Origin: Mycoplasma mobile 163K
GTDB taxonomy: Bacteria > Bacillota_I > Bacilli_A > Mycoplasmatales > Metamycoplasmataceae
Reading direction: 5' to 3'
Assembly (NCBI RefSeq): GCF_000008365.1
Contig: NC_006908.1
Span: 150,001 to 182,000, forward strand
Length of the DNA stretch: 32,000 bases
Shown piece after piece: positions 1 through 24,636 of this stretch. Under the pieces are notes generated by a model. That model was given only the letters and a program-made list of their open reading frames with translations, searched no databases and was not told where the DNA came from. Position 1 is the first letter of the stretch. Every line of letters begins with the position of its first letter. Position numbers and translations under genes: made by a program.

Positions 1-3000
1 TCACATTGCAAAGACCACATCCAGCATGATCTAATCCTGGTTCTATTGCAAAAATTATCCCTGATGGTTTTGGTGGATTTAATATTTTAGGTTGGAATGT
101 AGATGTTGCAAAAAATGAAATTTATAACGCAAGAACCCCTTTAAATGCCGAAAATGGGCAATTGATAATGCCCGAACTTATTAATTTAATTGATGGAGGA
201 GGTTTTGGATTTTCTTATAGATATTCACAACAAATTCTTAGAACTTTTGATTCATATTTAATTAATGTTGATGGTAATGGTGAGATAAAAAACATTAATT
301 CTAATTGAGCCAATTCTTCTTTTATAAATGAAATAACAGGAGAAACCTCTCCTATTGTAAGGGAAAATCATAATTCATTAAGAGATATTGTTTATGATGG
401 TAATGGTGGTTATTATGGGATTACTGTTTCAAATACTCTAGTTCATTTAAATAATCAAGGTAATCAATTAAGTTGAAAATCAGATATTCCTAATAATGAT
501 GTAAGTTCAAATGGATACATATCAACAAGTTCATCTGATTTACAAACGATTTTAAATAATCAGCAAAATCAAGCCACTGCTTCAATATTAAGTTTGAAAA
601 ATCAATCTTTAATTTTGGCAACAAGAAATAATGTTAGAGTATTGCCATTTAATGGAACAAGCACTTCTAACTCTACTTTAAACATTGCTTTAGCCAATAA
701 TTTTATTATTGACAATATTCAAGAAGTAGATTCTAATACTTATTTACTTTCAGGAAATAATTCTTCTTCACAAAAAATTATTTATATTTTGAGATTTGGT
801 ATAGGTGGAGCACCAATTCTATCAAATCATCACATGATCGATTCAAATTCTTTAAAATCAAATGTATTAACAGGAAAAATATATCCTAATGGTCTTTTAG
901 CAATTATGGTTGCAAACAATACAAATGGAATAACATTTTTAGATTACAATTTTAATAATAATACAATAGGATTAAACCCTACTCAAAATTTCAATACAAA
1001 TATAGTTCCAACTAATGCTCAAATTGAAAATCTTGCAATTAGTCCACAAAATGAAAGTTTAGTTGTTGCTTATAGAATAAATAACAATCTTGGATTTAGA
1101 ATTTTTGGTGCTCTTTCTAGTCGTTATAGAACAAATACTCCATATTATAGTTCAACTCCTCTTAATCTTAGTGCATCATCGATCCACCTTCCTTATATTG
1201 ATATTACACCAAATGAAGCTTCAGGCATTTTTACAAATTCAGCTTTACCATTAAAATCAATAATTTCAAATACTTTTAATCGTAGTTCAGATACTTTCAA
1301 TGCTTCAGATGCCTCAAGGGGGAATACAGCTCTTATTTATTCATTAGGACAAAATATTTATAGTTTGAATTTTAATTCTCTTGGATCAGATCAATCTAAT
1401 AATGTAACTCAGTGAGGAATTCCAGTTGAAAAAGCTTTAAGTTTTACTAAATTAACTAATGCAAATTCTCTGAGAACATCTAATTCATCTACTCTTGTAA
1501 GTAGTGATTTTAGTATTTCAGCAATTGAATCAGATGGTGTAGGAGGATACATTATTGGTGGAAATAGTCCAATTTTAATGCGTTTAGGTCTTGTTAATGG
1601 TTTTTTACAATTGATTTCATATGAAAGTTATGCAGCCGAATTTAATAATTTAATTGTAAATACTATTCACTCAGATAGACAAGGGATGTTTATTGTCTCA
1701 GGCCAAAATGGTTTAGGGGCAGCAACAATACAAATAAATAGATTACTAACAAGAGGACTAATTGATATTGATAATCCTTATGGACAAACATTTACAGGAA
1801 GACCAACCGTAGCTCAAATTACAAACTTTTGAGAATCTTATAAAAATATTACTTCTGTTAATACAATAAGCAATGGTTTAGGAGTTGTTACTTTACAAAG
1901 ACATCAAGCTTACTTATTAAATAGAAAAGCTATTAAAATTCCAAAAAATACTTCTCTTTCAATTACAGATATTTTGAGATTTAAAGGAACTATTCCAAGT
2001 GTAGGGAATCAAGTAGGATTTACAATTAATGAAACAGATCTTTGAGGTGATTTAGGAAGAGATTATTATGGTAATATTGATGTTCAATATTCATTTGTAG
2101 GTTTTACAACTAATAATCAACAAAATTGAGTAACTGGATCAGATAATTTTGTTAATTTATTTAAATTAGATGCAAATTTCAGACCTCAACCCTCAGCAGG
2201 ATTTACTTTGAACGCACAGCAAATCCAAAGTTTCAGACCTCGACATTTAATGATTAGATATGTTGTTAATAATGATAGTTTAGTTCCAGGATTTTCATCT
2301 AATAATATTGCAATTAGTACAGAAGCTCTTTCAGTTAGAGGAAATTCAGAAGTAACTAGTGCTGATATGATTAAAGATTTAACTCTAAATCATATAATTT
2401 ATTTGCAATCTAACGCAACAGGAAATTTTATTGCTGATGGCAATAGTCCATTTAGACCTACAACGTCTAATTTTTGAAATTCTTTTTTCATTGGAGAGCC
2501 AAACAATACAAATATAAATTCTTTCAGATTAGTCCCTGCAGATTTAGGTAAATCTCTAAGTAATCAAAATTTGGAAATTGTTCTTCCAAGATCAATGACT
2601 GATATCCCTTCAATTCGTAATAGAGAAGTTGAAGTAAAATTTACCAATAATATAAATCCAACACCTACTTCAATATGATATACACTTGAAGAAATAAAAA
2701 ATGGTCAATTATTCATTGATTCAAACACAAAATTGTCATGATCATTTTTTACAAGACAAGGACAACGAATTACAGCAGTAGATTCAAATAATCAACTTGG
2801 AAATGGAGTTTTTGGAAATTTACAAACAACACCTCATGAGATTAATAATGAGCAAATTATTCCAATCAATATCCCTAATTCAAGTGTAAGAGATTGAAAC
2901 ATCACTTTAGGTGGAGATACTAAAAACATTACAATTATTAATTCAAATACAAATGCTCAAGTACAAGAACATTTAGAGTTACAATATGCAATTGGATCAA

Positions 3001-6000
3001 TAAATGAAAATAATGTTTTTGTTCCTAGAATTTTTAATGGAAATATTTGATTTAAAGATACAGATTTTTCAAATGCTTTAAAAAATAATTCAATCGATAT
3101 AACTCTTGGAAACAATTTTATTTATGCAAGAGTAGTTTTAAAAAATGTGCCGAATAAAACAATAGTTGTTTCAGGAAATGAGCAAATTAACACAATAAAT
3201 CAATCAGGTATTACATTTTCATTTAATACAGGGGAAAATGGGCTTCCAATTTTAAATGGAACTCAAATTTTTGATGGGCAAAATTTTACCCCAGTTTCAA
3301 ATGCAAAAGGTCTTGTAAAAATTTTCTACAATGCAACTCGTGATTTTGAAACTTTAAAATCAACAAGTGTTATAGTAGGTGGTTCTGATTCAAAAAATTT
3401 ATCAATTAATTTTGGTCAATTATCTTTAAGTTCATTAAGATCAAGTGGAATAGATGTTCAATTCTCAATCAATAATGGAACAACTTGAGAATCATATTTA
3501 GTTGAAGGACAACTTATTGATGCTTCTGTTTCTAATGATCCTACTAAAGTTTCTTTAAGATTATTTCCAAGAAATAATTTTGCTACAGAAATTAGCACTC
3601 AAGCTCTTGTAGTTAAAAATGTTCAAGCTAGAATTTTAATTAGTGGACTAAATATTAATAACTTAAGAGATGCAAACCTTGTAAATTTAAGTGGAAACAC
3701 AAGAGATTTAGCTATCAATGTTGATCAAAACGTTTATAGAGGTGCCACCGGAAATTCAACAACTCCAATTACAAATATTGTTCAGGTACGTTTTGCTATT
3801 AATGGAGTTTTAGGTGGAACATTTTTTGAAAAAGATGAATTCTTAAGAGAATTAAGAAGTTTACCTCGTTCAATTTTAAATGCAATTAGACCAGGCGATT
3901 TTAGAGTTAGTTTTATTCTTTTAAATAATGAAGATTTTTCACTAGAAGAAGGATTATCAACTCCGCAAATCCCAAATATTACGAATGTTAAGCGTTTAGT
4001 TGATTTATTTGATCATGTTAATTTAGCTAATGGTAGTTCAATTGTATCTTCAGGATCAACATCTAGATTAAGTCTTTCTAATCCGAATTCTTTACTTTCT
4101 GAAACTACATTAACTCAATTGGGAATTGTTCTTGAATACGGTTCATATAGATATAGAGCAAATGGCGATAAAATTGATGTTAATTATGTATGAGAAACAA
4201 TAATTCCAACAGCTATTAGTTCAGCTACTCCTGATAGAACAAATCAGAATTTCAATTTTGCTCCAAATATTAATTCAAATGCTTTTTCTTTGGCATTTAG
4301 ATTTAAAATAATCGATGAAAACACTACTATTATTGTCAATGGGAATAGTAATATTGTAAATCCTGGAGTAGATGGAGATTTAGGATTTTCAATTAATACA
4401 AATTCTTTAACTAAGGATATTATTTTTGGTACAACAACAACATCTAATTTTATAAACCCAAATGATTTACAAAAAATAGTTTTAACTGGAACTACATTAA
4501 ATATAAATCAACTTATTTCTCATAGTGAAAATAATCTATTAAATTCAATTATACAAACAGATATTAGAAATGTTCTAAGAGTAGAATATTCTTTTGATAG
4601 TTCAAATTTTTATGATTTTGAAACATTCAAAAAAGAAGCAAATGAACACCAAAAAAATAATGAGAATTGATCTTTAGAATATAAAAATATACTTTTACCA
4701 AACGGAACCAGAACAGATATTCAAGGTTTTGGAAATATTAAAAAGATTTTTGTAAAATTTGAAGTAAAACCAGAACATAGATCTCAATTCACAATACCTC
4801 AAAATCAATCTAGAGAAGCAAACATTTCAGGTTTAACAAATGGCACACACATTTTAGGAAATGCATTACAATCTTCATATGATATTTCTAAATGATTGAA
4901 TATTTTGAATACAACTCCAATTACAGTTGCTCCAGGTTCAACTTCTGATAATGTTTCAGGATTAGTATTACCTACTCCAATAGAAGGTTTAAGTGTTCAA
5001 GATGCAATTAACCAATTAAGTCAAAGAGGATATATTGTAGAATTTAATGCTCCAAGCGGACAAAATCCAGCTCTTTGAGTTACAAATTTAAATTTAATTA
5101 CTTCTGTAGGGAATAGTCGTATTATTCGTGTAAGAGTAGTTCCAATAGGATTTAGACAAGGTACTGCAGTTGCTGGTAATTTGACAACTGGAGAAATTTC
5201 AAATGGTTATACAAATATAATAAGACCAAATTATATAAATACAACAAATCCTTATTCATTTAATGATGGAATTGATGTAAGAGTTAGTGTACCAACAACA
5301 CTTACAATTTCCAATCCAAGTATTGCTTTATTAAATGAAATTAAACCTTCTGGAAATACAAATCAAATAATTTTAGCAAGCCAAAATAATATTGATGCAA
5401 TTAGAAATAGTCTACTAGCAAATGGGATTATTTTAAATATTCCAGGTGTAGCAAGTGGAACTGTTGAACTTCAATATGCGATTGGTAATCAAGGTGCAAC
5501 AGATTTAGGAACTGAAAGTACTCATTTAAGACAACTAACAAATTCAAGAACTTCAAGATGATATAATGCTGCTGATTTTTCAAAATTTTTAAAAGAATTT
5601 GTAAATCAAAATGCTTTAAATGCTATTTTAGGAAATAATTTGAATATTTATGTTCGTTATGGCCTAACCTCTTCTCCTGCTTTAGGAGTAGAGGGACAAA
5701 TAGAAGGTCTTTTAACAGATAATGAAAATCAATTGAATCAATTTAGAGTTCAAAATCCAAGTCCTACTTTATTAACTTCGACCACTCAAGGGTTCATTAA
5801 TGTAGATCGAATAATTTCTGATATTTCTGCTGCTAATGCACTTTCATTTAATAATGCAAATCCAAATATTCTTTCAAATTCAATTTTCAAGATTGATTTA
5901 CCTCTTTCTTTAACCGAAGAAGGAATCAATGATGTTTCACAATTTTTAAGAACTAACAACTTAGCACTTGAATTTAGTGTAGGTCAAAATGCAGGTTTAG

Positions 6001-9000
6001 ATTTTGCAGAGTGAATTAATTTAGACCAATTTAATGCTGTTCCTTCAACAACTGTAAATTTTGGGAATCCTCCTAGATTGGTTTTTAGAATTAGAAATAC
6101 AAACCCCACATCTTTTGTTATTTATTCTCAAACTTCTATGACTAATTCATTAGTTTCTGTAAATATTGAAGCAAAATTAGATAATATAAATGTGAGTTTA
6201 AATTTAAGTTCTGCAGATATTAATAGAGTTCAATTTAGTGGAACAACTTCAAATTTAGTGATTAATGATGAATCTGCAACAAGTAATTTTTATGTTGCAA
6301 ATGGAGATGTTGAGCTTCAATATTCATTAGTAAAAAGAGCAAATGGTATTGACTTAGCTTTTGCAATTCCAGGTCAAAACTCACTTTGATTAAATAAAAA
6401 TACATTTAGTAATTCTTTAGCAAGATGAATTCCTACAACTTTTAATGCAACAACAGGAATTCCAATTTTAGATAATGTATTTACATTAAATTTAAACTAC
6501 AATGCAGCTAATTTCCAAGAAGATACTTTCAAAATAGTTGCAAGATATGTAATCACAACTCAAGGATTGACAAAAAGATTAAGTTTCACTCCTGATTTTA
6601 GAAATCCAACTAGATTAAACGAATCAAATATAGTTAATATAAATATTTCTAATTGATCAACAGTTAAAACTATAATTAATTTAAGTTCTTTAGTAAATTA
6701 TTTATCAAGACAAAATACAATTATTAATTTTGGGAATTCAATTGATTCTTCAAATATTACAAGTATTATTTTACCTGATCCTTTAAACCAAAATCCTAGC
6801 TCAATCACAAGTAGAACCTTAGTAAGATTCTTAACTAATAATGGCTTTGAAATTAAGTATGCATTTGGTAATAATGCTAATCTAGTTATTGCAAATTACA
6901 CTACTAATTGAAATTCCAATTTTCAAGCAAATCCAATTTCTTTATTAAGAACTAATGGAACTTCTGTTTTAGGGATTTTATTGAATTCGACAAATAGTAA
7001 TTTTGAAATTATTAATTCTGCTAATAATCCTACAACCACCCCAATTCTTAAAGAAGGTAATTCAATTAATATTCCTACTTTAATTAATCTTCCAAATTTA
7101 GAAATAGAAGCTTCAAGAATCATTTTTAATGCAAATGATTCACAACCACTAAGCTCTAGATTTTTAACAATTGATGATTCAAGTCTATTAGGATTAATTA
7201 GAAATAATGATAATTTTCCAAACAATGAACAAGTAATATTAGAATACTCAAATGGGTCATCATTATTACCAAATAGTTCAGAAATTTGATTCTCAAAAGA
7301 AAACTTTATTAGAAATCTTGCCCAAAACAGACCATCTTCTTTAATAACACCAAATAGAATTTTTGTAAGGTATGGTTTAATCGATAGAACTTCAAATAGT
7401 TTTAGAGTACCAACTTTTAATTCTCGTTTAACAATTGATCCAAATTCAGATTTAATTGATGGAGTATTTATTCCTAATTCAACCAATTTAAAAAGTCATG
7501 TTGATTTATCTATTCAATTAAGTGCTTTAACATCAGGAACTAGAGGAGGAGCAATTACTTTTCCAAATGGAGCAACAACAGCACGTTTAGGAAATGCTAC
7601 TTTAACTGGAGATATTAGTTTTGGAGGAATAATTTCACCTCTGTCTGCTTTAGGGATTCAATTGCAATTTTCAGCAGATAATACAACTTGATTCACTTAT
7701 GACCCAAATAATTTTCAACCACAATCTTTAATCCCAAACAATACTTTGTTTGCAAGATTTAATCTTACAACTGCCAATGCAACAAATAATTTTGTTTTAT
7801 CAAGTGAAGAATTTGTTAATGTAGAAATTGCTTCAACAGTAAAACTAGCACTAATTTTAGATGCTAATTTACTAACAAATATTAATTTAAGTGGGAACAA
7901 TAAATTTATAAACATTGATGGATCAGATATTTTAAATCCAAATAGTTCTTTTAATGTTCAACTTCAAACTATATTAGACAATGCAAATTCATCTTTATTA
8001 AAATGAGGAATTCAAAATATTGGAGATTTATCAGTACAATTTTCTTCTACATTTTCAAGTAGTGCAAATTTAGGGCCAAATAATTGATTAACTAAAGAAA
8101 ATTTTATTAGAGAATTTGCAAATAATTTGGGGACTTTTACTGAAGCTCCAATTAATTTAGAAATTAGAGCTAGATATTTCTTTACAAATCCTTTAAATAT
8201 CAATTTAGCAACAGCATCATCAAATCTAGAAACAAGTATCGGGAATACTATAGTTGCTTTAACAGATTTAAGCAATCGTTCAATACGTGCAATAAATTCA
8301 AGTAGTAATATAAAAATTTTTATTAATACTAATGAATTTATTGAAGCATTAAGAAATGGACAAACAAGATTCGAACTAGGTTCAACATCTTCAAATATTA
8401 GAGGTGTTCCAATTCTTCCGAATAATTTTAACAATGAAATATTGAATCTTTTATCTTCAAGATATGGAATCATTGCTCAATTCGGAACCTCAAATTCTTC
8501 AGCTGAAATTCCTATTGTTTGATCTAATAGTTTAATTAGTTCATTACAAACAGACATAAATAATAAGCCTATTTTATGAATGCGTTTTGTAGCAGAAAAT
8601 GTAAAAGGTATTGTTCCAACTGTTGAAGAACCAATTACAACTCAAGTACATGTAGGTACTTTTGGTACACCAATTTTATTACAACCAATAATTCCTATTT
8701 CTGTCGAAACAAATAGCGCCCATTTAAGATTTGTTAGAATTACAGGGAATACAAAAAACATTAACATAAACATCAATGAAGCACTAGCGCTTGCTCCTGC
8801 TCTTTCAAGAGATAAATTAACTGTAGAATTTTCAATTGGAGGAAATCCTTCTAATATTGCAAATAATAAAGTTGTAGAATTGATTCCTGGTCAAATTTGA
8901 TACAAACATAGAGAATTTGAAGCAGCTTTAGCAAATTATCCTAAAAATATCTTACATGGTAATTTAATTTACATGAGATGAGCATTTTCTGGCAATCAAA

Positions 9001-12000
9001 ACAATGAAGGAGAACAAATTTTAGATTCAAGTTCAATTTTATATGTTCCTTCTATTGACAATGGTAATTCAAGTTTTGCAGTATTTGCAGATATTACAAA
9101 ATACTTTGAACAGCTGCAAAATATTACTTTAGGTGGAACAACTAATTCTCCATTTTTTGCAAATGTTCCATCATTACTACAAGCAAATCCTGAATTATTT
9201 GAAAATATTCCAAATGATCCAGTTGATTTCTTGTTCCCTGGCTTAGAATTAGAATTTTCTCAATTTGCAGAAGGTCCATGACAAAAAACACCTTTATCTT
9301 CAATTGTTCTTACAAATAATTATTTTGTAAGATTAGTTTCAAATAGTATAGTTAGAATTAATTATGTATTTTCTTTTTCGCCTACTTCAGATATTGTAAC
9401 ATTTACAAGTCCAGTTAAATTAGACACAACAAATGTTAAAACAATTGTAAATGTTCCTCCGGTTACACAATTACAAAATATTGCTAATATTTCATTCAGT
9501 GGCACATTAAATAATTTAATAATTACTGAGAACATTAATGAAATTAGATCATTGATTGAAAATCTAAATCCTATAAATAAAAATTTAGCAAATAACATTG
9601 TAATTCAATATTCATATTTTGAAAATCCTACAAGTAATCAATGATTCAACAAGGAAAATTTCATCAATGAATTAAGTAGATTAAAAGGAAGAGTTTCTGA
9701 AAGTGAATTCATTATTTTAAAAAGTCAAATCAAAATTAAATATGCAATTAATAATTCATCATTTATTGTTGGTATGAATGACTCGCCTATTGATGATTTG
9801 CAATCACAAACAAATATTTCTTTAATACAACAAAATAGTTTCAGTGGATTAATTAATTTAGATTCATCACCACTATCATTATTTAAAAAAGTGATATTAT
9901 CAGGAACTCACAATAATTATTCTCTAAATTTTGATGGCCTTTCTAGAGAAGCAATGAAAAGTATCTTAGATAGATATACTTCAATTTCACTTCAAACTCC
10001 TTTTAGTATTTATATTACAAATACTGCTGGAGAAGGAATCCCTTCATTTGAAGAAGGAAGATTAATTTATAGATCTAATAATCCTTTAGTTCTTGAAAAC
10101 ATAACAAATTTTCCTCTTGATTTAGGAAATACAATCCCTGAAGAATTGCCTTTATTCATTCGTTTTGTTCCGAATCCAACTAGTGCTGATGTTGCAAATA
10201 CATATAGAATTTTAAATGAAGGAAATTTATTGGATGTAAATCAAGGAATCCAATTTAGAATTAAAGTTTCTGTAGATCCAATTAATCCATTTAGAATCGA
10301 TTTAAAAAGTGTTGTAGATACAATTTTCGCAAATCAATTATCAAATTTTGCTTCTCAAATAGTTGCAAATCCAAATGAAACATTTACAATTCAAGGTAAT
10401 TCAACTTTAGCATTAACTAATGGTGGATCAATAATTAGTAATCCAAAAGAATTCTTTAATGAATTGGATTTAAATGATGCTGAATTTTTAGCATTCCAAT
10501 ATTTTGTTTCAAACTCAAGATTAAGCCCTCAAGAAATTGCTAATTTAAGATTAAGCACTTCAAGTTCATTTTTTACTCAAGAAATTCCTTCAAATTTAAA
10601 ATCAGGTCAATTTGTTTATATAAGAGTAGGAATTGATCAAAATAATCCAAAAGCAAATTCTTTAGAAGTTTCAAATTCATCTATTATTACTGAAGTCTTA
10701 GTTACAAATTTAGCAATTGACTTAGTAAGATCTCCATTAAATTGAGATTTTGTAGATTTTGAAAATGTTACAGGAACTATTCCGTTTAGCGGGACATCAT
10801 TTATAAATAATTTAATATTAAATGTTGATCAAAATGAAAACTTTAGAGGTGTTGGAATAAGAATTTTTAACAATTTTACTTATTTAACAAATACAGGACA
10901 AGAAGTAATTTTTACAAATTCAAATCCACCAACACAAGATGTTTTAAATACATTGTTGAAAATCAATGGAGCTTTTGTTGTAAAAACTCAAATCGGAATC
11001 CCTTCTAATGGTGACAAAGAATTAAAACTCATTAATGATCAAGGATCAGAAGCAGGAATTACTTATTGAGTAAATTCTCAAGGTGTGCCACTTCCTCCAT
11101 TGCAAAGAGCAATTAATGTAAATGAAGATTTATTTTTCCAACTTACAAGAAATCCAGATGGTCAAATTAGTTTTGCTCAAAATAGATCATTGGCAAATTT
11201 TGAACTATTTAATATTTATGCAGAAGCAACTATTTCATATCAATTTATAGCTTTAGATGGATTTAGTGGCTTTATTAATACTGAAAATACAACAATTTTA
11301 GATCTTTTATCTCAAATTCAAGAATTCAAAGTTCCAAGCGGTGAAATTAAAAATCAAATAAATGGAATTTCACAATTCGAAGTTTTAATGCCTCAAATTG
11401 TTCATAGCACATCTCCTTTAAATTTACCTCCTATTAGTGGAATTTCAACTTTTGCAAATTTAGTTGTTAATAGAAATGGTGTGCAAATAGACTCGAATAA
11501 TTTAATTAATAATTTATCTCAAAATCTTTTAAGCATTGAAATAATTCTTACAAAAACAATAAATGGAGAACAAAAACAAACAATTTTTAGTGTCCAAAAT
11601 GGAAGAATTGATTTTCCAACAAATCTTGAAAATGGTGATTTAGTAACAATTCAAATAATCCCATTGAATTCAAATTTCTTTGCTATTAGTTATTTAGAAA
11701 AACCTAATTTAAGAGAAACTTTCACAATTTCAGGTCTTGAAGTTGATCCAGGATTAGAAGCATTTAAATTCTTAAGAACTGGTTTCAACATCAATAACAA
11801 TTCTCCTGTAAGTGGAAGAGGAAGTTTTGAAGTTTTATCAAATGATCCTCAAGATCCATTCAATGCTCTTAAAGATCCTGTTAATAGAAATTCAAATTTA
11901 CAATGAAATTATTCAATTTTTAGACCAAAAGCTAATCAAGATGGAACTTTTGGTCCTGAATATGAAGTTATTAGTTTCGAAAGAAATGAAAAACCGATTT

Positions 12001-12665
12001 CATTAAAAAATGGAGATATTGTTCAATGAATACTTGCTTTAAAGAACAATGAAAATGGCGGAATTATTACAACAACATATAATAATGCTATTGCAAGTCC
12101 TTTTGGAACTCCTCAAGTTTCAAAATTAAGAATAGATAAACCAGGCCTATTTTTTACAAGATTAATAAATGGAGTCCCAAGAAGAATTGATTTAACTGAA
12201 GGATTTTTAGTTTCAGGATTAAAAGAATCTTTAAGTATTCCTAATGATTTTAATTTAAATGCTATTTCAATTTCTTTTATAGGACAAAATCAAATAGGAT
12301 CTTTTGAAGCAAATACATCTAATTTAAATATTCCAGAAAAAACAATTATTACGTATTTCAAAAGAGGCGAAAATGGAGAAGAAATTCAAATTTTCCCAAA
12401 TTCAACATCTACTAATTTATCAAATGGAGAAACTATTATAATTAGATTGCAATTAGATCCACAATTTAATAATGATTTTGCTTTAGATGTACCTTCAGGA
12501 GCAATTATTGAAATAAATCAAATTGTTTCAGGTTTAATTGAACAATCAAATCCTGGAGCACAAATTGCAATTATTACAGCAGCTTCAGTTGCAACAATTC
12601 TTACTCTAGGTTTAGGTGTTTTATCACTAATAATTATTAGAAGAAGAAAATTAAAAGGAAAATAA
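1..12665 (+). CDS. gli521: Giant surface protein, 5'-partial (4,220 codons in window), Gli521-type gliding-machinery protein with C-terminal membrane anchor
   Basis: All 16 large + strand fragments from 594 to 12665 are in the same frame (start divisible by 3). Each fragment ends at TGA. Hand translation of 3-600 and 6387-6981 shows only TGA interruptions. TAA stop at 12663-12665. The only hydrophobic helix sits at the extreme C-terminus. Size and synteny with a 356-aa downstream gene match my recollection of M. mobile gli521-p42. Confidence 0.8.
2043..9690 (+). repeat. Protein-level tandem array of about 19-20 divergent modules (about 120-180 aa each) inside the giant ORF
   Basis: The recurring order is phi-[SGT]-G-[NT]-T-x-x-phi-x-I (e.g. 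LSGNTRDLAINV, ITGNTKNININI, FSGTTSNLVIND), then phi-[EQ]-[YF]-[SA] (VELQYA, VELQYS, LRVEYS, LALEFS, LTVEFS, IDVQFS), then a UGA-encoded Trp. The Trp is often followed by [FYL]-x-K-E-N-F-I (WFSKENFIRNL at 7287, WLTKENFIREF at 8085, WFNKENFINEL at 9642). Confidence 0.65.
12564..12638 (+). other. C-terminal transmembrane anchor of the giant protein, followed by the basic tail RRRKLKGK
   Basis: IAIITAASVATILTLGLGVLSLIII is an uninterrupted hydrophobic stretch. It is followed by 8 mostly basic residues and then the stop codon. Confidence 0.8.
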
Positions 12666-12668
12666 AAT

Positions 12669-13739
12669 ATGACAAAAAATTGAAATTTCGAAAATAAGGA
12701 AAATTATTATCCAAATATTGTTCTTTTTCATTTAGGTGATGATGAAACTTTACAAGCTTATGACTTAGATGCAGAAATAAAAGAATATATTAAATATTCA
12801 AGAATTGGTTCAAACAATACTGATGAAGCTTTAATGCAAAAAGGAATAAATGAACTTTTTTTAACATGATTAAAAAAAGATAAAAAAGTTTTAAATTCAA
12901 AAAAGTTTTTTAAACTTAATTCAGATAAACTAAAAGATTACTTGAAAGAAGTTGATATTTCAATTATTATTTCAAAATCCAATGACATTGCTCAAATAAA
13001 TTATTTGACGGCTTTAAATCAATTTATTTTTAAACCTTTAGATATCTTAAGTTTTAATTTTGTATTGAGGACTTCTAATCATAGTAAAAAATCTGAAAAA
13101 GTCCTTAACAGTTCAATAAAACTTTTAAAAAAGCAAACTAGATCTCAAATGATTATTATTGAGGAAAGAGACATTTTAGCATCATTTCAAAATCTGAAAA
13201 TTAGTAATTTAAAAGAATTTATTTCAAAAAATTTCATTAAACTTGTAGATTCTTTAATAAGCCCATTTTTAAGAGTAGTAGAGAATCCTTATTTATTTAA
13301 AAAGTTAAAATATCAAATTTTCACAAATGAAATAAATTCAAATCTTATTTTATCATCTCTAGCAATAAGTAGAAAAACAGAAAACAGGTTAGAGGATTCA
13401 TTAAGAAAAGTTCTTATAAACCCAATCTTTAAATCATCTTTTGAATATTCAAAATTGTTATTAGTTAACATTAAAGGTATTTTTTTAGAAGATAAACATA
13501 AAGAAAAAATTGAAAATAGATTAAAAGAAATTTTAGGGCATGAAAAAGAAATTATTGTAACTTATTTCGATGATAGATATGCAATGGATAGATACACTCA
13601 AATTTCTATTTTTGCATTTTTTGTTGAAAAAACAGGACATACCAACAAAACCACTCAATTGCAAAATAATTTGCTAAATTCTAAAGAAGAATATCAAACA
13701 ATTGTTAATAACTTGACAGAAGAAATTCTTCTAAGATAA
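12669..13739 (+). CDS. p42: P42-like protein (356 aa) translationally coupled to the giant gene; C-terminal half resembles the FtsZ C-terminal domain
   Basis: ATG at 12669 lies 3 nt after the upstream TAA. Two in-frame TGA codons (12681, 12867) join it to track ORF 12942-13739. Its size and position match P42 of the M. mobile gliding operon (from memory). YSKLLLVNIKG...IIVTYFDD...ISIFAFFVE resembles FtsZ G(A)xGVLVNItGG...IIxGxxxD...vtViATG. Confidence 0.7.
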
Positions 13740-13769
13740 AAAAAGTGATAGTTATCTATCACTTTTTTT
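13740..13769. terminator. Bidirectional rho-independent terminator between p42 and the convergent minus-strand cassette
   Basis: Perfect 11-bp stem aaaagtgatag (13741-13751) / ctatcactttt (13756-13766) with loop ttat. It is flanked by an A-run on one side and a T-run on the other. The stop codon of the minus-strand 90-aa ORF lies in the loop. Confidence 0.75.
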
Positions 13770-14024
13770 ATTAAATTTAAAATGCTCATTATAATTATTC
13801 ACAAAATTTTCAAATAAATTGTAAATATTTATGTAAACATTGTCTTCTATTTCGACATTTTTTTCTTTTATTTCGAGATATTTATCACCATTCATTTTTG
13901 TGATTTTAACTAAGAAATTTATGATTTCTTCTTCATTTAATATATCGTCCTTACCTATTTCTATGCTTTCAGACAAATATTTTATGGTATAAATATCTTT
14001 ATTATTTATTAATATTTCTAACAT
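13752..14024 (-). CDS. Small acidic cytoplasmic protein (90 aa), last gene of the 2-TM cassette, unknown function
   Basis: Intact ORF with a strong SD (GAAGGAGAATT-ATG on the minus strand at 14025-14038). No TM segment. Glu/Asp/Asn/Ile rich. Confidence 0.6.
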   Translation of the reverse strand: MLEILINNKDIYTIKYLSESIEIGKDDILNEEEIINFLVKITKMNGDKYLEIKEKNVEIEDNVYINIYNLFENFVNNYNEHFKFNKKSDR

Positions 14025-14078: not shown

Positions 14079-14537
14079 TTATTTCCGAATTGCTTCATCA
14101 ATTTTTTCGAATAATTTTAAAAATTGAATATCATCTTTTGCATATTTAGTTTGTGACTTTTTAAATTCGTCCATTTCTTCATTGATCATTTTTATTCTAT
14201 CATTTAAATCTTTATGAAGGTTTTTAAATTCAAAAAAAGCATTCAAACTACTAAAAAATGCAATTGAACCTGTTATAAAGGCAATTGCTATGAAAAAAGG
14301 TCTTGATAACTGATTATTATTAAGTCTAATTGCAAACAAATTTAGTACAACTAACATAGAACTAATTGCAAAAATAGCAATATTTAAAGTTAGAAAAATA
14401 CCATAGCCAACAACATATCTTTTTTTAAAAGTTTTGTATTGCTCTTTTATTTGATTAATTAATTCTTTTCTTGAATATTGACCAATGTCATTTGTTAAAA
14501 AATTTCTAAATTCTTCTTCTTTTTTTCTATGTCTCAT
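14079..14537 (-). CDS. 2-TM membrane protein, SLATT/DUF4231-like, paralog 3 of 3 (152 aa)
   Basis: Basic N-terminal helix (QIKEQYKTFKKRY), two TM helices (VVGYGIFLTLNIAIFAISSMLVVLNLFAI; PFFIAIAFITGSIAFFSSLNAFF), then a charged helical tail (FKNLHKDLNDRIKMINEEMDEFKKSQTKY). Its ATG lies 1 nt after the upstream stop. Confidence 0.7.
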   Translation of the reverse strand: MRHRKKEEEFRNFLTNDIGQYSRKELINQIKEQYKTFKKRYVVGYGIFLTLNIAIFAISSMLVVLNLFAIRLNNNQLSRPFFIAIAFITGSIAFFSSLNAFFEFKNLHKDLNDRIKMINEEMDEFKKSQTKYAKDDIQFLKLFEKIDEAIRK

Positions 14538-14538
14538 T

Positions 14539-15051
14539 TTATATTTCCTTATTAATTTTTATGATTTCTAAAGATTTTTCATATTCTCTTAATCTATTTG
14601 CTTGTTCAAGGATCAAACATACAGTTTCAAATAAAATAATTTCATTTTCTTTAGTATTTTTTGTATATTTACCTGCTCTTAATTCAAATTCCATTTTTTC
14701 AAATTTTAATTGCTTATGAATTTTTCAATTTTTTTTATATGTATCTTTTACAACAAAAAAATTGACAATGCTTGATAAAAATGCACTAACACTAGAAATT
14801 ATTGAGTTTGTAAAAACAAACACATTACTTGGTCCTCCTGCAGGATCTTGGAATGCTAATTTAGCAATATTTAATGTACTTATAATTACAACATTAAATG
14901 TCAATGCAATTATAATAAAATTCAACAAGTAATATAAAAATCTAAAAGAAGAGTAGATTCGAAAGGTTTTGCTTATGTATTTTTTAGTAAATGACCTTAC
15001 ATCTTCTTTTGAAGATAAAATTTTTGATTCTTTATTAGATTGATTAATCAT
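14539..15051 (-). CDS. 2-TM membrane protein, SLATT/DUF4231-like, paralog 2 of 3 (170 aa from ATG 15051; alternative ATGs at 15057 and 15072)
   Basis: Track ORF 14725-15072 ends at TGA. Hand translation continues ...KKNWKIHKQLKFEKMEFELRAGKYTKNTKENEIILFETVCLILEQANRLREYEKSLEIIKINKEI to TAA at 14539-14541. GAGGA lies 5 nt upstream of ATG 15051. Two TM helices are present. Confidence 0.65.
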
Positions 15052-15592
15052 CTTCATCCTCTGAACTTTCATTAATAAAAATCGATTTTAAAACTTTCAA
15101 TGTTTTTGCATTTTTTGGTTTTTTCAAATATATATCATTAATATTTTCAAGTAAAATAGTAATTTTTTCGTAATTATAATTTTCAATATCCATTTTAGAT
15201 TTTATTAAAAGATATTCCAATTCTTGATAAGCTTTTTTAAATTTTTGAAATCTAGATTTAGATTTATAAATTGCTAATACAGTTAACAATATAAATAGAA
15301 AAATTGTAAAAAATACAACTAATGCCGATAAAATAAGTTCCAAACTATTTCCAATATTTGAATCATTTAGAATTACCCCTAATGTAAAAGATGCAAGACC
15401 AAGCAAAACAATGTTTAATAAAAAAATTAGCGTTGAAGTTAAAATCCAAATCAAATGGTTAGCTTTTGATTTAAAATTCAAATTATTTAAGAAAATATCT
15501 ACTTGGTTTTGAATTTTATAAAATTTTTCCTCATTAGAGTCAAGTAAAATAGTCCTTATTATGTTTTTGTTTTTACTAGATTTATCTTTCAT
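15044..15592 (-). CDS. 2-TM membrane protein, SLATT/DUF4231-like, paralog 1 of 3 (182 aa), acidic C-terminal tail SSEDEDD
   Basis: Intact ORF, with an upstream in-frame TAA at 15608-15610. TM helices are LIWILTSTLIFLLNIVLLGLASFTLGVIL and LELILSALVVFFTIFLFILLTVLAIY. The post-TM segment is KSKSRFQKFKKAYQELEYLL. Confidence 0.7.
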   Translation of the reverse strand: MKDKSSKNKNIIRTILLDSNEEKFYKIQNQVDIFLNNLNFKSKANHLIWILTSTLIFLLNIVLLGLASFTLGVILNDSNIGNSLELILSALVVFFTIFLFILLTVLAIYKSKSRFQKFKKAYQELEYLLIKSKMDIENYNYEKITILLENINDIYLKKPKNAKTLKVLKSIFINESSEDEDD

Positions 15593-15682
15593 ATATAATC
15601 AATTATTTTACCAAATTTAAAAGTTTTATTAAATATAAAAAATCAAATTTCATATTCTTAAAAATTAATATTTAAATTAATA

Positions 15683-15688
15683 TATAAT
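15683..15688 (+). promoter_or_regulatory. -10 box TATAAT, 7 nt upstream of ATG 15696 (probable leaderless transcript)
   Basis: The sequence is tataatgtttattATGaaa. No SD is present. The same module occurs at hrcA and argS. Confidence 0.4.
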
Positions 15689-15695
15689 GTTTATT

Positions 15696-16874
15696 ATGAA
15701 AATATTTAAATTTTTAAAAGCCACATCAATTTTTCTATGGATTTCTATTTTTGGATTAATAAGCACTTTTGTTGGAACAATTCTTTATTGATTTTATCTT
15801 TTTCCAACAACTGGACTTAATGTATTTTTATTTAACATTACAAGACCTTTTCCGGATGTAATGTCTTCAATTTTGTTTATTGTTTTTTTTACTTTTTTCT
15901 TGAATTTATTCATTTTAAGTTCTATGTTTTTAGTTGGTTCAATTGATTTTTTCAGAAAAAACTTATTAAATCCTAATAACATTAATTTTAGATATTGAAC
16001 TTTTATTTTTCCTTGAGTATTTAAAAAATTAAAAAGATCTTATTTAATGAGAAATTATTTATTTATAAAGGATTCATTAGAAAGTAAAGATAGAATTGAT
16101 TTTACTTACAAAAATAATAATAATTCTGATTTACCTTTTAGTGATGAAGAGCTTATTTTCAATGAAAATAAAAATCAATCTTATGTTGTGGAACCAATTG
16201 AATATGTGAATGAAGATGAACAAATCTTTAGAACAAATAATGTAAATACTTTTTTTGAAAATAATCAATCAAACACTAACACTTTAGAGTCAAATTATGA
16301 AGATGCATTTTACCAAGATGATTTAGTGGAACCTCAATCATTTAATCAAAATTGAAGAACACAAACATTTAACACAAATCAATTTGAAAATACAAATTCT
16401 TTTAATACAAATACCCAACAAGAAGACACATATTCATATTTATATGCTCAGCCAAATCCTGATGCAGCTACTCAAAGTTTTGGGACTGAATATATGGATA
16501 CATTTGCTAAAAATCAAGAATATAGAAATTATTATGCAAATAACCAAAATCAAAATGTTTCCAACAAAAACACACAGTTTATTTGAAAACATCCAAATTT
16601 GATAAAAGCAAAAAATACAAATACAAACACAATTCCTAAAATTCATGAAATTTATAAAGGGTTTCCTCCTCAAGGTCTTCAAACTAATAACTTTAATCCT
16701 TTTGTTAATCCAAAAACAGGTCAAAGAATTTCTCATCCTTTTTACTCTGATCAAAGAACAAAACAAATGATGATTCAAAAGCAATTGTATACACTAGAAT
16801 TTATGTATAAATCAGGACAAATAAGTCCCTCTGATTACTATGTAAAAAGAAATCAAATTACTAATTTAAAATAG
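15696..16874 (+). CDS. Membrane protein (392 aa): N-terminal TM helices, long N/Q/E-rich low-complexity linker, C-terminal SHOCT-like motif
   Basis: ATG 15696 is in frame with track ORFs 16047-16355 and 16599-16874 through TGA codons at 15789, 15996, 16014, 16353 and 16584. The stop is TAG at 16872. The C-terminus LYTLEFMYKSGQISPSDYYVKRNQITNL resembles the SHOCT consensus (L..L...G.Is.eEy..kk..l). Confidence 0.65.
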
Positions 16875-16900: not shown

Positions 16901-16912
16901 TTTTAGATAATT

Positions 16913-16918
16913 TATAAT
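16913..16918 (+). promoter_or_regulatory. -10 box TATAAT, 6 nt upstream of the hrcA ATG (probable leaderless transcript)
   Basis: The sequence is tataatgtgtatATGaaa, with no SD. Confidence 0.4.
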
Positions 16919-16924
16919 GTGTAT

Positions 16925-17917
16925 ATGAAAGAAAAACGTGATGAAATTTTATTAAAAATAATAGATTTATATATAAAAAGTGGGCAACCTGTTAGTAGCA
17001 AACAATTGATTTCAGAATATAAATTAGCTGTTTCTAGTGCAACAATAAGAAATATCATGGCAGATTTAGAAAATGAAGGTTTTTTGGAAAAAACTCATAC
17101 TTCTAGTGGCAGAATTCCTTCTATTTCTGGATATAAATTTTTTGCTGAACATTCTAAATCAAAAACCAATGAACTACTAGAAAGTAAATTAAAAGAAATT
17201 TTTTCAAAAAGATATCTTTCGATAGACGTTACTCTTGATGAAGCTGCAAAAGCAATTAATGAAATAATAGGACTTACCTTGGTTACATCTTCAAATGTAA
17301 ATACAGAAGTATTAAAATCAATTCAACTTATAGAATTAAACAATTATTCAGCAACAATAATTCTTGTTACATCAACTGGTCAAGTTGCAAATAAAACAAT
17401 TGATTTAACTAATTTCCAAGACATAAAATTAGAAGATGTAAGAATAGCAATTAGATTATTTAAAGAAAGACTTATTAACACATCTTTAATTAACTTAAGA
17501 GAAAAAGCTCTTGCTTTGAAACCTATTTTGTCTAAATACATTAAAAATTACGAGACAATTTTGCAATCCTTTATTGGAAATGTTTTTGAATTTGAAAACA
17601 AAAACCATGTTTATGGGAAATCAAATATAATAAAACAAGAAGGAATCGATCGATTACATTTAACTCAAATTTTAGATTTAATTGAAAATAATAGTATTTG
17701 AAATATGATAGAAAGCAAAGTAGAAGAAGATGAAACTTTAAAAATTGATGTTAGAAATAGCAACATAAGTTTGATTTCCAAAAAAATTTTTGTTAATAAT
17801 ACTACAAAAGAAATTTCAGTAATTGGTTCAAATAGAATGGATTATATAAGCGCTAAATCTGCTATAGCTCTTTTGGAAAGTTTCATAAAACCAAAATTTT
17901 CTAAAAAAAACAATTAA
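16925..17917 (+). CDS. hrcA: Heat-inducible transcription repressor HrcA (330 aa)
   Basis: The N-terminal winged-helix segment LLKIIDLYIKSGQPVSSKQLI...SSATIRNIMADLENEGFLEKTHTSSGRIPS is classic HrcA. One in-frame TGA (17699) joins the two track fragments. Confidence 0.9.
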
Positions 17918-17938
17918 TATTTATTTATAATTAAACTT

Positions 17939-18850
17939 ATGAAAGAAAGACAAACAGATTTTTTTAATTTTGGAGACAAAATAACATTTGATTATACAGC
18001 AAAAGTTACTAAAGATAATTTAGAATGAAGTAAAAAAAATATTTTTCTCACTTTAGGAGAAAATACTTTTTTACCAAATTTTGATTTTCATTTTTTAACT
18101 ATACCTTTTAGTGATAAGTTGATAATCAATTATAAATTTAGTGATTTTTATTTTGATAAAAAATTATCTGGTAAGGAAGTAGAATTTTCAATTCAAATTC
18201 AAAAAAGAGAAGCGAGTTCAGATAAAAATTTACAAAGTAAAAATCTAATTATTGATGCTATCAATGTTCAAAGAGATTTTTCAGAAAAAAATAAATCAAG
18301 TGATAATTTAGAAATTTTAAATAAACAAATTGAAGATAAAAATGATTTAATAATTAATTTAGAAAAAAAAGTTTTTGATTTAACTCTTGAGAACAAAAAA
18401 AACATTGATGATTTTAATGAAAAAGCAAAATCTTTTGCAAAAAAAGCACAAGAAGAATTGGATAAATATAAACTAGAATTAAAATCATTTTTGGAAAATG
18501 AATTTGAAGAGAAGAAAAAATTTTCATTTCAAAAATTATTTGAAAATATTATAAATCCTTTAAATAATTTTAGATTGGCAATTGATGCTGGTTCAAAACA
18601 GGAAAATTCTTCCATTAAGTCATATGTGCAAGGTTTTGAAATGCTTTTAAATCAAACAATAAATATTTTAGAATCTTATGGACTAATAATTATAAGACCA
18701 GAAATAGGAGACACCTTTAACCCTGAAGTTCACAATGCAGTTGAATTAAGAGAAGAAGGAACACCAAATAGAATTTTGAAAATTAACTCACTAGGCTATC
18801 AATTTCATGAAAGAGTTTTAAAACCAGCTTCAGTTATTGTTTCGAAATAA
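17939..18850 (+). CDS. grpE: GrpE nucleotide-exchange factor with an N-terminal, roughly 90-aa trigger-factor-type FKBP-like domain (303 aa)
   Basis: The C-terminus NPLNNFRLAID...GFEMLLNQ...ILESYGL...GDTFNPEVHNAV...GYQFHERVLKPASVIV is GrpE. ATG 17939 is in frame with track ORF 18119 through TGA 18026, with no other stop. Confidence 0.85.
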
Positions 18851-18853
18851 AAA

Positions 18854-18880
18854 TTAGCACTTTTTTATATAGAGTGCTAA
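18854..18880 (+). promoter_or_regulatory. CIRCE operator (HrcA binding site)
   Basis: TTAGCACTT-N9-GAGTGCTAA compared with the consensus TTAGCACTC-N9-GAGTGCTAA, a single mismatch. Confidence 0.9.
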
Positions 18881-18885
18881 TTTTT

Positions 18886-18894
18886 TGTTATAAT
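18886..18894 (+). promoter_or_regulatory. Extended -10 promoter element (TGtTATAAT) for dnaK
   Basis: The element lies immediately downstream of CIRCE. An SD-like GAAAGGA lies 7 nt before ATG 18947. Confidence 0.55.
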
Positions 18895-18904
18895 GATCAT
18901 ATAA

Positions 18905-20752
<1,848 letters not shown>

Positions 20753-20774
20753 TAATCAAAATATTATTTTAAAT

Positions 20775-20808
20775 AAAACAAGACTTATTAAGTCTTGTTT
20801 TATTTTTT
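20775..20808 (+). terminator. Rho-independent terminator after dnaK
   Basis: 12-bp perfect stem aaaacaagactt / aagtcttgtttt with loop att, followed by attttttg. Confidence 0.8.
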
Positions 20809-20827
20809 GAAAAGTTTAAAAAAATTA

Positions 20828-20833
20828 TATAAT
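20828..20833 (+). promoter_or_regulatory. -10 box TATAAT, 8 nt upstream of ATG 20842
   Basis: The sequence is tataattacttgttATG, with no SD. Confidence 0.35.
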
Positions 20834-20841
20834 TACTTGTT

Positions 20842-22458: not shown

Positions 22459-22490
22459 GATTTTAAATTTAAACGAAAGGTATTTAAGAA

Positions 22491-23990: not shown

Positions 23991-23992
23991 AT

Positions 23993-24580: not shown

Positions 24581-24590
24581 ATTTCTCCAT

Positions 24591-24619: not shown

Positions 24620-24636
24620 AAGTTATCATTTATTAT

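What the first reader, a model, noticed from the sequence alone, without database searches (positions are those of the whole stretch)
12669..13739. P42-like gene product looks like a degenerate FtsZ/tubulin-fold protein lacking the glycine-rich GTP signature
The C-terminal half aligns by eye with the FtsZ C-terminal domain. AISRKTENRLEDSLRKVLINPIF matches GvAsGedRAeeAaemAisSPLL. YSKLLLVNIKG matches gArGVLVNItgG. EIIVTYFDDRYAMDRYTQISIFAFFVE matches tvviGtslDpdmnDelrVTVvATGig. I found no GGGTG[ST]G tubulin signature and no Walker A motif anywhere in the 356 aa. The gene starts 3 nt after the giant gene's stop, which indicates translational coupling. A cytoskeletal-GTPase-derived, signature-less protein encoded with the gliding surface proteins is a candidate intracellular partner of the motor. 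P42 has been reported as an NTPase (from memory).
Basis: partly seen in the sequence, partly recalled or inferred. Interest (0 to 1): 0.7.

Follow-up and report, generated by a model that had tools for sequence, protein, structure and literature searches.

The report
Mycoplasma mobile P42: a degenerate FtsZ
The gene is the known gliding-operon protein P42 (Gli42) of Mycoplasma mobile, and sequence profiles and structure prediction agree that it is a diverged copy of the cell-division protein FtsZ that has lost all its GTP-binding motifs; as far as I recall this link was already proposed in 2014.

Summary
Read with genetic code 4, window 12669-13739 (+) is a 356-aa ORF whose ATG lies 3 nt after the stop of the giant upstream gene. 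It has no GGGTG[ST]G motif and no Walker A motif. It is 100% identical to Mycoplasma mobile P42/Gli42.

A profile of the P42 family has B. subtilis FtsZ as its best PDB hit (E=0.0033). hhalign against three FtsZ sequences gives P=2.8e-6 over the full length, while reversed and shuffled controls give P of 0.26 or worse.

AlphaFold2 models of P42 and of its 26%-identical M. pulmonis homologue both return only FtsZ among the top 50 PDB matches (E about 1e-17, target-normalised TM 0.68-0.81, both domains). All of the nucleotide loops T1-T7 are replaced.

The family is tiny: 7 cluster representatives in 1.84 billion proteins, all Metamycoplasmataceae. The named members are the four known mobile-type gliders.

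My best reading is a cytoplasmic FtsZ paralogue that lacks the canonical GTP-binding motifs and acts as a scaffold of the gliding machinery.

The fold assignment is not new. From memory, Tulum et al. 2014 inferred FtsZ ancestry by PSI-BLAST and Ohtani and Miyata 2007 reported NTPase activity.

Verdict: correct, but already known.

The parts
3..12665 (+). 3' part of the giant surface-protein gene gli521 (C-terminal 4220 aa). It ends in a membrane helix followed by RRRKLKGK and a TAA stop at 12663-12665.
   Evidence: Code-4 translation has no internal stops. It is 53% identical to the giant gene upstream of the closest P42 homologue (L003) and about 24% identical to the M. pulmonis 4362-aa homologue. 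The published gene order is gli123-gli349-gli521-gli42 (PMC7052211).
12654..12659 (+). Shine-Dalgarno-like AAAGGA, 9 nt before the P42 ATG, lying inside the last codons of gli521.
   Evidence: Read directly from the sequence. An equivalent (A)AGG(A/G) motif lies 6-10 nt before the ATG of the homologues in L002-L006. Its function is inferred.
12669..13739 (+). p42 / gli42 (MMOB1050) coding sequence: 356 aa, 42.0 kDa, pI 9.2.
   Evidence: 100% identical to NCBI 'gliding machinery protein P42 [Mycoplasma mobile]'. NCBIfam NF045859 glide_P42 scores 419 bits against a cut-off of 280.
12669..13283 (+). Residues 1-205: the counterpart of the FtsZ N-terminal (nucleotide-binding) domain plus helix H7, with strands S1-S6 and helices H1-H7. 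The T1-T6 loops have lost their motifs. A P42-specific conserved N-terminal motif N-Y-x-P-N sits at residues 12-16.
   Evidence: AF2 secondary structure. hhalign of residues 12-136 against FtsZ 12-136 gives P=0.031 for this part alone. Motif map; conservation.
13284..13634 (+). Residues 206-322: the counterpart of the T7 loop, H8 and the FtsZ C-terminal domain (S7-H9-S8-H10-S9-S10).
   Evidence: HMMER E=0.0033 against 2vam. hhalign P=5.4e-5. AF2. Conservation.
13635..13736 (+). Residues 323-356: a low-confidence tail, made of a variable linker and then a short motif N-x-x-T-[RK]-E-[ILF]-[IL]-[LV] that is semi-conserved across the family.
   Evidence: pLDDT is below 50 for residues 323-356. The C-terminal tails are aligned.
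13736..13771 (.). A 16-bp A-run/stem/T-run hairpin overlapping the stop codon. It is probably a bidirectional intrinsic terminator that closes the operon.
   Evidence: RNA fold gives -16.7 kcal/mol, z=-9.2, with 0 of 200 shuffles folding as well. The consensus scan missed it, probably because the stem absorbs the T-run.

Best explanation
The ORF is P42 (Gli42, MMOB1050), the last gene of the Mycoplasma mobile gliding operon gli123-gli349-gli521-gli42. It is a highly diverged paralogue of FtsZ. It keeps the complete two-domain FtsZ topology (S1-S10, H1-H10), but every loop that binds or hydrolyses GTP in FtsZ has been replaced, and the T2, T4 and T5 loops are now among the least conserved parts of the family. 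It has no signal peptide or membrane segment, so it is cytoplasmic. [quoted passage not shown] I infer that it acts at the inner face of the membrane at the cell neck as a structural scaffold or adaptor. In that role it would help place or hold the Gli123/Gli521/Gli349 units relative to the internal F1-like ATPase chains. It would use the conserved C-terminal-domain face, the T7/H8 face and a short conserved C-terminal peptide, rather than a GTPase cycle. What is shown: identity, fold, homology, motif loss, absence of a membrane segment, and gene linkage. What is inferred: the scaffold role, the partners, and any self-assembly. My confidence that it is an FtsZ-fold homologue without canonical GTP motifs is about 0.9. 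My confidence in the scaffold mechanism is about 0.5.
For: Identity to P42. Profile against PDB has FtsZ as best hit, E=0.0033. hhalign gives P=2.8e-6 with clean reversed and shuffled controls. Two AF2 models each return FtsZ for all top 50 PDB matches at E about 1e-17, target-normalised TM 0.68-0.81. Phage PhuZ and tubulin-like proteins match less well, TM 0.46-0.56. T1-T7 motifs are all replaced. In the family, T4, T5 and T2 are least conserved while H9, S8, S10 and the N-terminal motif are most conserved. There is no hydrophobic segment: the maximum KD(19) is 1.11 in P42 and no more than 1.49 in any family member. The ATG lies 3-6 nt after a gliding surface-protein gene in 5 of the 6 lineages with readable context. 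The Lp17-rich upstream gene is Gli123 according to bioRxiv 10.1101/2022.09.07.507039. The family is restricted to Metamycoplasmataceae, and its named members are the four known mobile-type gliders. M. pulmonis has both a working FtsZ and P42, so P42 is a paralogue. The gliding motor has since been assigned to the F1-like ATPase (PMC11864180, abstract; PMC8406192, abstract).
Against: The N-terminal domain alone is only marginal by sequence (P=0.031). The fold rests on predictions made from alignments of 7-8 sequences. From memory, Ohtani and Miyata 2007 measured NTPase activity and ATP-analogue labelling for recombinant P42, so some nucleotide site may exist. Several family-invariant residues (G47, F64, W67, Y112, E166) sit near the former nucleotide pocket, so that surface is still under selection. 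The literature at hand calls Gli42 a surface component and says its localisation is not clarified. No interaction data were available.
Confidence: 0.6

Rival explanations
1. P42 is a working NTPase that uses a non-canonical nucleotide site in the remodelled FtsZ N-domain. It supplies or regulates energy for gliding, either as an accessory motor or switch or through nucleotide-dependent assembly.
For: From memory, Ohtani and Miyata 2007 (Biochem J 403:71) reported ATP and other NTP hydrolysis and photoaffinity labelling by recombinant P42; that paper is not held. Family-invariant residues G47, F64, W67, Y112 and E166, and the near-invariant G23 and D24, lie in or next to the former pocket loops.
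Against: No Walker A motif, tubulin signature, T1 glycines or T7 aspartates are present. The T4 and T5 loops vary freely within the family. Later work assigns the motor to the F1-like ATPase (PMC11864180, abstract; PMC8406192, abstract). Weak activities of recombinant proteins can come from contaminants (general knowledge).
Confidence: 0.22
2. P42 is simply the decayed remnant or replacement of the cell-division FtsZ of M. mobile. It acts in division and is linked to the gliding genes only by position.
For: M. mobile has no canonical ftsZ, and P42 is its only FtsZ-fold protein known so far.
Against: M. pulmonis has a canonical FtsZ as well as P42. The family occurs only in Metamycoplasmataceae, and all its named members are mobile-type gliders. 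The gene is tightly coupled to gli521 or gli123 in 5 of 6 lineages. It is not in a division gene cluster.
Confidence: 0.08
3. The resemblance is not homology. It would be a composition-driven alignment combined with an AlphaFold model biased towards a common alpha/beta fold.
For: Identity is only 12-16%. Pfam gives no significant Tubulin or FtsZ_C hit; the best is FtsZ_C at E=0.14 in one member. The sequence is AT-rich and Lys/Asn/Ile-rich.
Against: Reversed and column-shuffled controls keep the same composition and score P=0.26-0.99, against 2.8e-6 for the real alignment. The alignment is colinear over 290-353 columns. Two models built on different target sequences give the same answer, with no non-FtsZ protein in the top 50.
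Confidence: 0.03

Closest known systems
P42 / Gli42 (MMOB1050) of Mycoplasma mobile and its orthologues (NCBIfam NF045859 glide_P42)
   Same: It is this protein: 100% identity, and 419 bits against a cut-off of 280. Orthologues at 24-27% identity occur in M. pulmonis, M. agassizii, M. testudineum and Metamycoplasmataceae MAGs, and one at 49% in an unnamed assembly.
   Different: Nothing differs. The published descriptions I could read call it a component of the surface structure. The sequence argues for a cytoplasmic FtsZ-fold protein.
FtsZ (bacterial and archaeal cell-division tubulin homologue; Pfam PF00091 + PF12327)
   Same: The predicted fold and secondary-structure order are the same across both domains. 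There is detectable sequence homology, strongest in H9-S8-S10. A few shared residues remain: D96/D97, K214/K215, P252/P248 and A316/A312 (P42/B. subtilis FtsZ). The general plan is also shared: a globular core, a variable linker and a short conserved C-terminal peptide.
   Different: The T1 GGGGNN, T2 NTD, T3 GLGAGA, T4 GGGTGTG, T5, T6 and T7 NxDFAD motifs are all replaced or deleted. The protein falls below the Pfam thresholds. The gene sits in a gliding operon and not in a division cluster. It coexists with a true FtsZ in M. pulmonis. The C-terminal peptide has a different sequence from the FtsZ DIPxFLR-type peptide (the FtsZ motif is from my knowledge).
Plasmid and phage tubulin-like proteins TubZ and PhuZ
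   Same: They belong to the same superfamily fold. Phage FtsZ, tubulin-like and PhuZ models are the top viral matches.
   Different: The match is clearly poorer (TM 0.46-0.56, rmsd 9-14) than to cellular FtsZ (target-normalised TM 0.68-0.81, rmsd about 4). From general knowledge, TubZ and PhuZ keep their GTP-binding motifs and act in DNA or nucleus positioning.

Membership tests
FtsZ/tubulin superfamily (fold level) | Two-domain fold: a Rossmann-like N-domain (S1-S6), a core helix H7, and a C-terminal domain (S7-S10). | tested here: met
   AF2 models give one-to-one secondary-structure elements. Foldseek returns FtsZ for all top 50 matches at E about 1e-17 over about 320 columns, for two family members. 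This is predicted structure, not an experimental one.
FtsZ/tubulin superfamily (fold level) | Detectable sequence homology to FtsZ. | tested here: met
   Family profile against PDB has FtsZ as best hit, E=0.0033. hhalign gives P=2.8e-6 globally, with controls at 0.26 or worse. The N-domain alone is marginal at P=0.031.
FtsZ/tubulin GTPases (functional family) | Tubulin signature GGGTG[ST]G (T4 loop). | tested here: not met
   The motif is absent by regex. The aligned positions read N-D-I-A-Q-I-N and vary across the family.
FtsZ/tubulin GTPases (functional family) | T1 glycine loop (GGGGxN), T2 NTD and T3 GxGAG phosphate-binding loops. | tested here: not met
   T1 reads G-D-D-E-T-L. T2 reads G-S-N. 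T3 is deleted in the alignment.
FtsZ/tubulin GTPases (functional family) | T7 synergy loop NxDxxD, which completes the active site of the neighbouring subunit. | tested here: not met
   The aligned residues are V-V-E...F-K-K. The family consensus is N-P-x-L-F-x-K-I-K, with both aspartates lost. The alignment in this loop contains a gap, so the exact residue pairing is uncertain.
FtsZ/tubulin GTPases (functional family) | GTP-dependent head-to-tail polymerisation. | not testable with these tools
   This needs purified protein (sedimentation, EM, light scattering) or multimer modelling, and neither was available.
Bona fide FtsZ (Pfam PF00091 Tubulin + PF12327 FtsZ_C) | Score above the Pfam gathering thresholds. 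| tested here: not met
   P42 has no Tubulin or FtsZ_C hit. Among 8 family members the best is FtsZ_C at E=0.14 in a single member.
glide_P42 (NCBIfam NF045859) | Score above the curated cut-off of 280 bits. | tested here: met
   419.2 bits, E=1.3e-125, residues 8-354.
P-loop NTPases | Walker A motif GxxxxGK[ST]. | tested here: not met
   The regex found no match, and the fold search finds FtsZ rather than P-loop proteins.

The most novel reading that the evidence does not exclude
P42 is an FtsZ-derived cytoskeletal element that still self-assembles, either without nucleotide or with ATP bound at a remodelled pocket. On this reading it forms the cytoplasmic lattice that patterns the roughly 450 surface gliding units at the cell neck and couples them to the F1-like ATPase chains. 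A division protein would then have been recruited to build a motility machine, in a lineage where M. mobile later lost ftsZ itself and is thought to divide by locomotion.
Probability: 0.15. Interest if true: 0.7.

Novelty: already known. Interest (0 to 1): 0.3.

Why it matters
P42 is the least understood protein encoded in the M. mobile gliding operon. Recent texts still group it with the surface proteins and say its localisation is unclear. Firm evidence that it is a cytoplasmic FtsZ-fold protein stripped of its GTPase motifs shifts the question. The question was whether P42 is the motor ATPase; it becomes what an FtsZ-derived scaffold contacts under the membrane. This is a candidate for the missing link between the internal F1-like motor and the external Gli521/Gli349 crank and leg. 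It is also a clear example of a cytoskeletal GTPase turned into a protein without GTPase motifs and re-used outside cell division. The core idea of FtsZ ancestry is, to my recollection, already published, so the gain here is confirmation and detail, not discovery.

Tried and rejected
- **Pfam.** Single-sequence Pfam gave only insignificant hits (Tra_M at E=0.0067, below its cut-off).
- **PDB, weak profiles.** phmmer against PDB gave nothing. A two-sequence profile against PDB gave only noise.
- **Exhaustive HMMER.** The two-sequence profile found 7 family representatives and no FtsZ at E of 1e-3 or better. The FtsZ link appears only once the 8-sequence profile is used.
- **First genome-contig scan.** It found no P42 relative. 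This is probably because one peptide pattern contained Trp, which this gene encodes as TGA.
- **FtsZ homologue search.** Searching with E. coli FtsZ returned only near-identical enterobacterial proteins and was useless for building a diverse profile.
- **Terminator scan.** The consensus scan missed the hairpin after the gene, but folding shows it.
- **Upstream gene.** I tried to show that the ~1200-aa lipoprotein-17-related gene upstream of P42 in other species is Gli123. NCBIfam, a homologue search and a second genome scan all failed. The bioRxiv Gli123 paper settled it.
- **Novelty of tortoise orthologues.** I thought the P42 orthologues in M. agassizii and M. testudineum might be new, because PMC7052211 says none exist. 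The same 2022 preprint had already found them.
- **Papers not held.** Tulum 2014, Ohtani and Miyata 2007, and Jaffe 2004 are not in the library. What I say about the first two is from memory.

Full report
**What is in the window.** The window has about 25% G+C and its table-11 ORFs are fragmented. Translation with code 4 (TGA=Trp) restores long genes. Coordinates 12669-13739 (+) form one 356-aa ORF with TGA codons at positions 5 and 67. Its ATG lies 3 nt after the TAA stop (12663-12665) of a giant ORF that runs from the left end of the window (4220 aa visible). That ORF ends in a membrane helix followed by RRRKLKGK. An AAAGGA Shine-Dalgarno-like motif lies 9 nt before the ATG, inside the last codons of the giant gene. 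A 16-bp hairpin flanked by an A-run and a T-run overlaps the stop codon (-16.7 kcal/mol, z=-9.2). The next genes are on the opposite strand. The ORF is therefore the last gene of its transcription unit.

**Identity.** The protein is 100% identical to 'gliding machinery protein P42 [Mycoplasma mobile]'. It scores 419 bits against NCBIfam NF045859 glide_P42, whose cut-off is 280. The published gene order is gli123-gli349-gli521-gli42, with Gli42 = MMOB1050 (PMC7052211). The giant gene is therefore gli521. The calculated mass is 42.0 kDa.

**Checking the observation.** No GGGxGxG, GxGxG or Walker A pattern is present, and only 6 of the 356 residues are glycine.
- Single-sequence searches see nothing: Pfam, phmmer against PDB, and a two-sequence profile against PDB.
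- An exhaustive HMMER pass over 1.84 billion cluster representatives found only seven family members and no FtsZ.
- With the eight available sequences aligned, the family profile's best hit among 177,635 PDB sequences is B. subtilis FtsZ (2vam). The E-value is 0.0033, pairing profile positions 228-340 with FtsZ 225-339.
- A sub-threshold piece also aligns in register at 82-100 against 82-100, the H3/S4 'lkgaDmvf' segment.
- hhalign of the family against E. coli FtsZ alone gives P=0.005 over 219 columns.
- hhalign against an alignment of three FtsZ sequences gives P=2.8e-6 (global, 353 columns) and 1.5e-4 (local, 290 columns, 11-319 against 11-315).
- The C-terminal part alone gives P=5.4e-5. 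The N-terminal part alone gives P=0.031 but stays colinear (12-136 against 12-136).
- Controls with the same composition fail: reversed FtsZ gives P=0.26-0.29, and twenty column-shuffled FtsZ alignments give P=0.48-0.99.

**Structure.** AlphaFold2 on the 8-sequence alignment gives pLDDT 79 and pTM 0.80, with only residues 1-8 and 323-356 unreliable. The order of elements matches the FtsZ topology one for one: S1-H1-S2-H2-S3-H3-S4-H4-S5-H5-S6-H6-H7-H8-S7-H9-S8-H10-S9-S10. Foldseek against the PDB returns FtsZ for all top 50 matches. E-values start near 1e-17, target-normalised TM is 0.66-0.81, about 320 columns align, and identity is 12-16%.

As a robustness check I modelled the M. pulmonis homologue, which is 26% identical. 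It gave pLDDT 83 and pTM 0.86, and again FtsZ only in the top 50, with target-normalised TM 0.68-0.80. Phage FtsZ, tubulin-like and PhuZ models match less well, with TM 0.46-0.56. The protein is therefore closest to cellular FtsZ. Both models are predictions from shallow alignments. They agree with the sequence-only evidence but do not replace an experimental structure.

**What has been lost.** I mapped the FtsZ nucleotide motifs through the hhalign alignment.

| FtsZ loop | FtsZ motif | P42 |
|---|---|---|
| T1 | GGGGNN | G-D-D-E-T-L |
| T2 | NTD | G-S-N |
| T3 | GLGAGA | deleted |
| T4 | GGGTGTG | N-D-I-A-Q-I-N, variable in the family |
| T5 | PFxFEG | not recognisable |
| T6 | ND | not recognisable |
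| T7 | NxDFAD | V-V-E..F-K-K; family consensus N-P-x-L-F-x-K-I-K |

Within the family, the T2, T4 and T5 regions are among the least conserved. The best-conserved parts are H9, S8, S10, the two-residue G-D remnant of T1, and a P42-specific N-terminal motif N-Y-x-P-N. Residues shared with FtsZ are few: D96, K214, P252 and A316.

The canonical GTPase machinery is therefore gone, and not merely the glycine signature. Two caveats apply. The alignment is uncertain around T5-T7. Several invariant residues (G47, F64, W67, Y112, E166) lie near the old pocket, so that surface still matters for something.

**Distribution and gene context.** Named family members come from M. mobile, M. pulmonis, M. agassizii, M. 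testudineum and Metamycoplasmataceae MAGs. There are also a few unnamed assemblies. The four named species are the known mobile-type gliders (bioRxiv 10.1101/2022.09.07.507039).
- In M. mobile and its closest relative, the P42 ATG follows the Gli521 gene by 3 nt.
[quoted passage not shown] That gene is split in two in the M. pulmonis assembly I read.
- I could not identify this upstream gene with the tools. The Gli123 preprint identifies it as the Gli123 orthologue and describes the gli123-gli42 pair in the tortoise mycoplasmas.
- The same preprint supersedes the 2020 statement that those species lack gli42.
- In one MAG the gene stands alone, within 9 kb of the type-2 gliding ATPase cluster. 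That cluster matches the glide_MMOB1670, 1660, 1640 and 1630 models above their cut-offs.

P42 is therefore consistently tied to gliding genes, and most often by tight coupling behind a membrane-anchored surface protein.

**Paralogue, not orthologue.** M. mobile has no ftsZ (PMC4164004; PMC8475190). M. pulmonis has an FtsZ whose N-terminal region can work in E. coli, and it also has P42. P42 therefore arose as an extra copy before M. mobile lost ftsZ.

**How it probably works.**
- **Shown.** It is an FtsZ-fold homologue without the canonical nucleotide motifs. It has no signal peptide or membrane segment: the maximum 19-residue hydropathy is 1.11 in P42 and no more than 1.49 in any member. It is co-expressed with the surface gliding proteins.
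- **Inferred.** It sits under the membrane at the neck and acts as a scaffold or adaptor for the Gli123/Gli521/Gli349 units. It may bridge them to the internal F1-like ATPase chains, which are now considered the motor (PMC11864180, abstract).
- **Architecture.** The tail is a variable linker followed by a semi-conserved peptide, N-x-x-T-[RK]-E-[ILF]-[IL]-[LV]. This resembles the FtsZ plan of core, linker and docking peptide. The resemblance is of architecture, not of sequence, and it suggests a docking partner.
- **Main rival.** P42 may be a real NTPase with a non-canonical site, as reported in 2007 (from memory). I give that reading about 0.2.

**Novelty.** The gene, its operon, its orthologues and its NTPase report are all in the literature. 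From memory, the abstract of Tulum et al. 2014 states that PSI-BLAST suggested P42 shares a common ancestor with FtsZ. I could not open that paper. No paper in the searchable library repeats the statement.

- controlled statistics for the homology;
- two structure predictions covering both domains;
- a loop-by-loop account of the motif loss and of where conservation has moved;
- the point that a protein still drawn among the 'surface' components has the features of a cytoplasmic one.

Noticed in passing
window 12654-12668; L002-L006 around position 9985-10000: The Shine-Dalgarno-like motif for P42 is encoded by the last Lys-Gly codons of the upstream protein. That protein ends ...KLKGK* in Gli521 of M. 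mobile and ...GFKKG*, GFKRG* or GFAKG* in the Gli123 orthologues of the other species. The coupling signal is therefore kept even though the upstream partner differs.
   Followed up: partly
L004 6432-9998, L005 6300-9995, L002 6613-9998: In M. agassizii, M. testudineum and M. pulmonis, P42 follows a gene of about 1200 aa rich in lipoprotein-17 domains. The 2022 preprint identifies this gene as Gli123. In the M. pulmonis assembly read here it is split into 403-aa and 689-aa ORFs. A spacer of about 670 nt containing a hairpin separates it from the gli521 homologue, so P42 there is probably transcribed with gli123 and not with gli521.
   Followed up: yes
L006 889-8327 (- strand) and 10001-11143 (+): In a Metamycoplasmataceae MAG (GCA_051645705.1) the P42 homologue is not next to any surface-protein gene. 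It lies within 9 kb of the type-2 gliding ATPase cluster, on the other strand, with rpsD and a Bax1-I-family gene in between. The cluster matches the glide_MMOB1670, 1660, 1640 and 1630 models above their cut-offs. This is a single case and could be chance in a small genome.
   Followed up: partly
window 14079-15607 (- strand): Three tandem small genes (152, 177 and 182 aa from the first Met) each encode two central hydrophobic segments and a charged C-terminus. The middle one is a clear DUF4231 (E=6.7e-21). A similar trio lies near P42 in the closest relative (L003) and in M. testudineum (L005 12337-13857). Their function is unknown.
   Followed up: partly
window 13752-14024 (- strand): A 90-aa ORF lies just beyond the P42 terminator hairpin, with no Pfam hit. 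A 91-aa gene occupies the same position in the closest relative (L003 11114-11389).
   Followed up: no
window 15681-16874 (+): A 395-aa protein (counted from its first Met) with several N-terminal hydrophobic segments and a long Asn/Gln/Thr-rich low-complexity C-terminal half. It has no family hit.
   Followed up: no
window 16907-31737: The rest of the window looks like ordinary housekeeping genes, judged by eye from the translations. These are hrcA-grpE-dnaK, two paralogous amino-acid-permease-like genes, a galU-like gene, a plsY-like gene, a YlqF-type GTPase, two RNA methyltransferase-like genes, a Cof-type phosphatase, an RNase H-like gene and argS. No family search was run on them.
   Followed up: no
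literature: Papers disagree on P42. PMC7052211 says its localisation is not clarified and that the tortoise mycoplasmas lack it. The 2022 preprint finds the orthologues and lists Gli42 as a surface protein. A 2026 review draws it as surface-exposed. The sequence has no export signal or membrane segment.
   Followed up: partly
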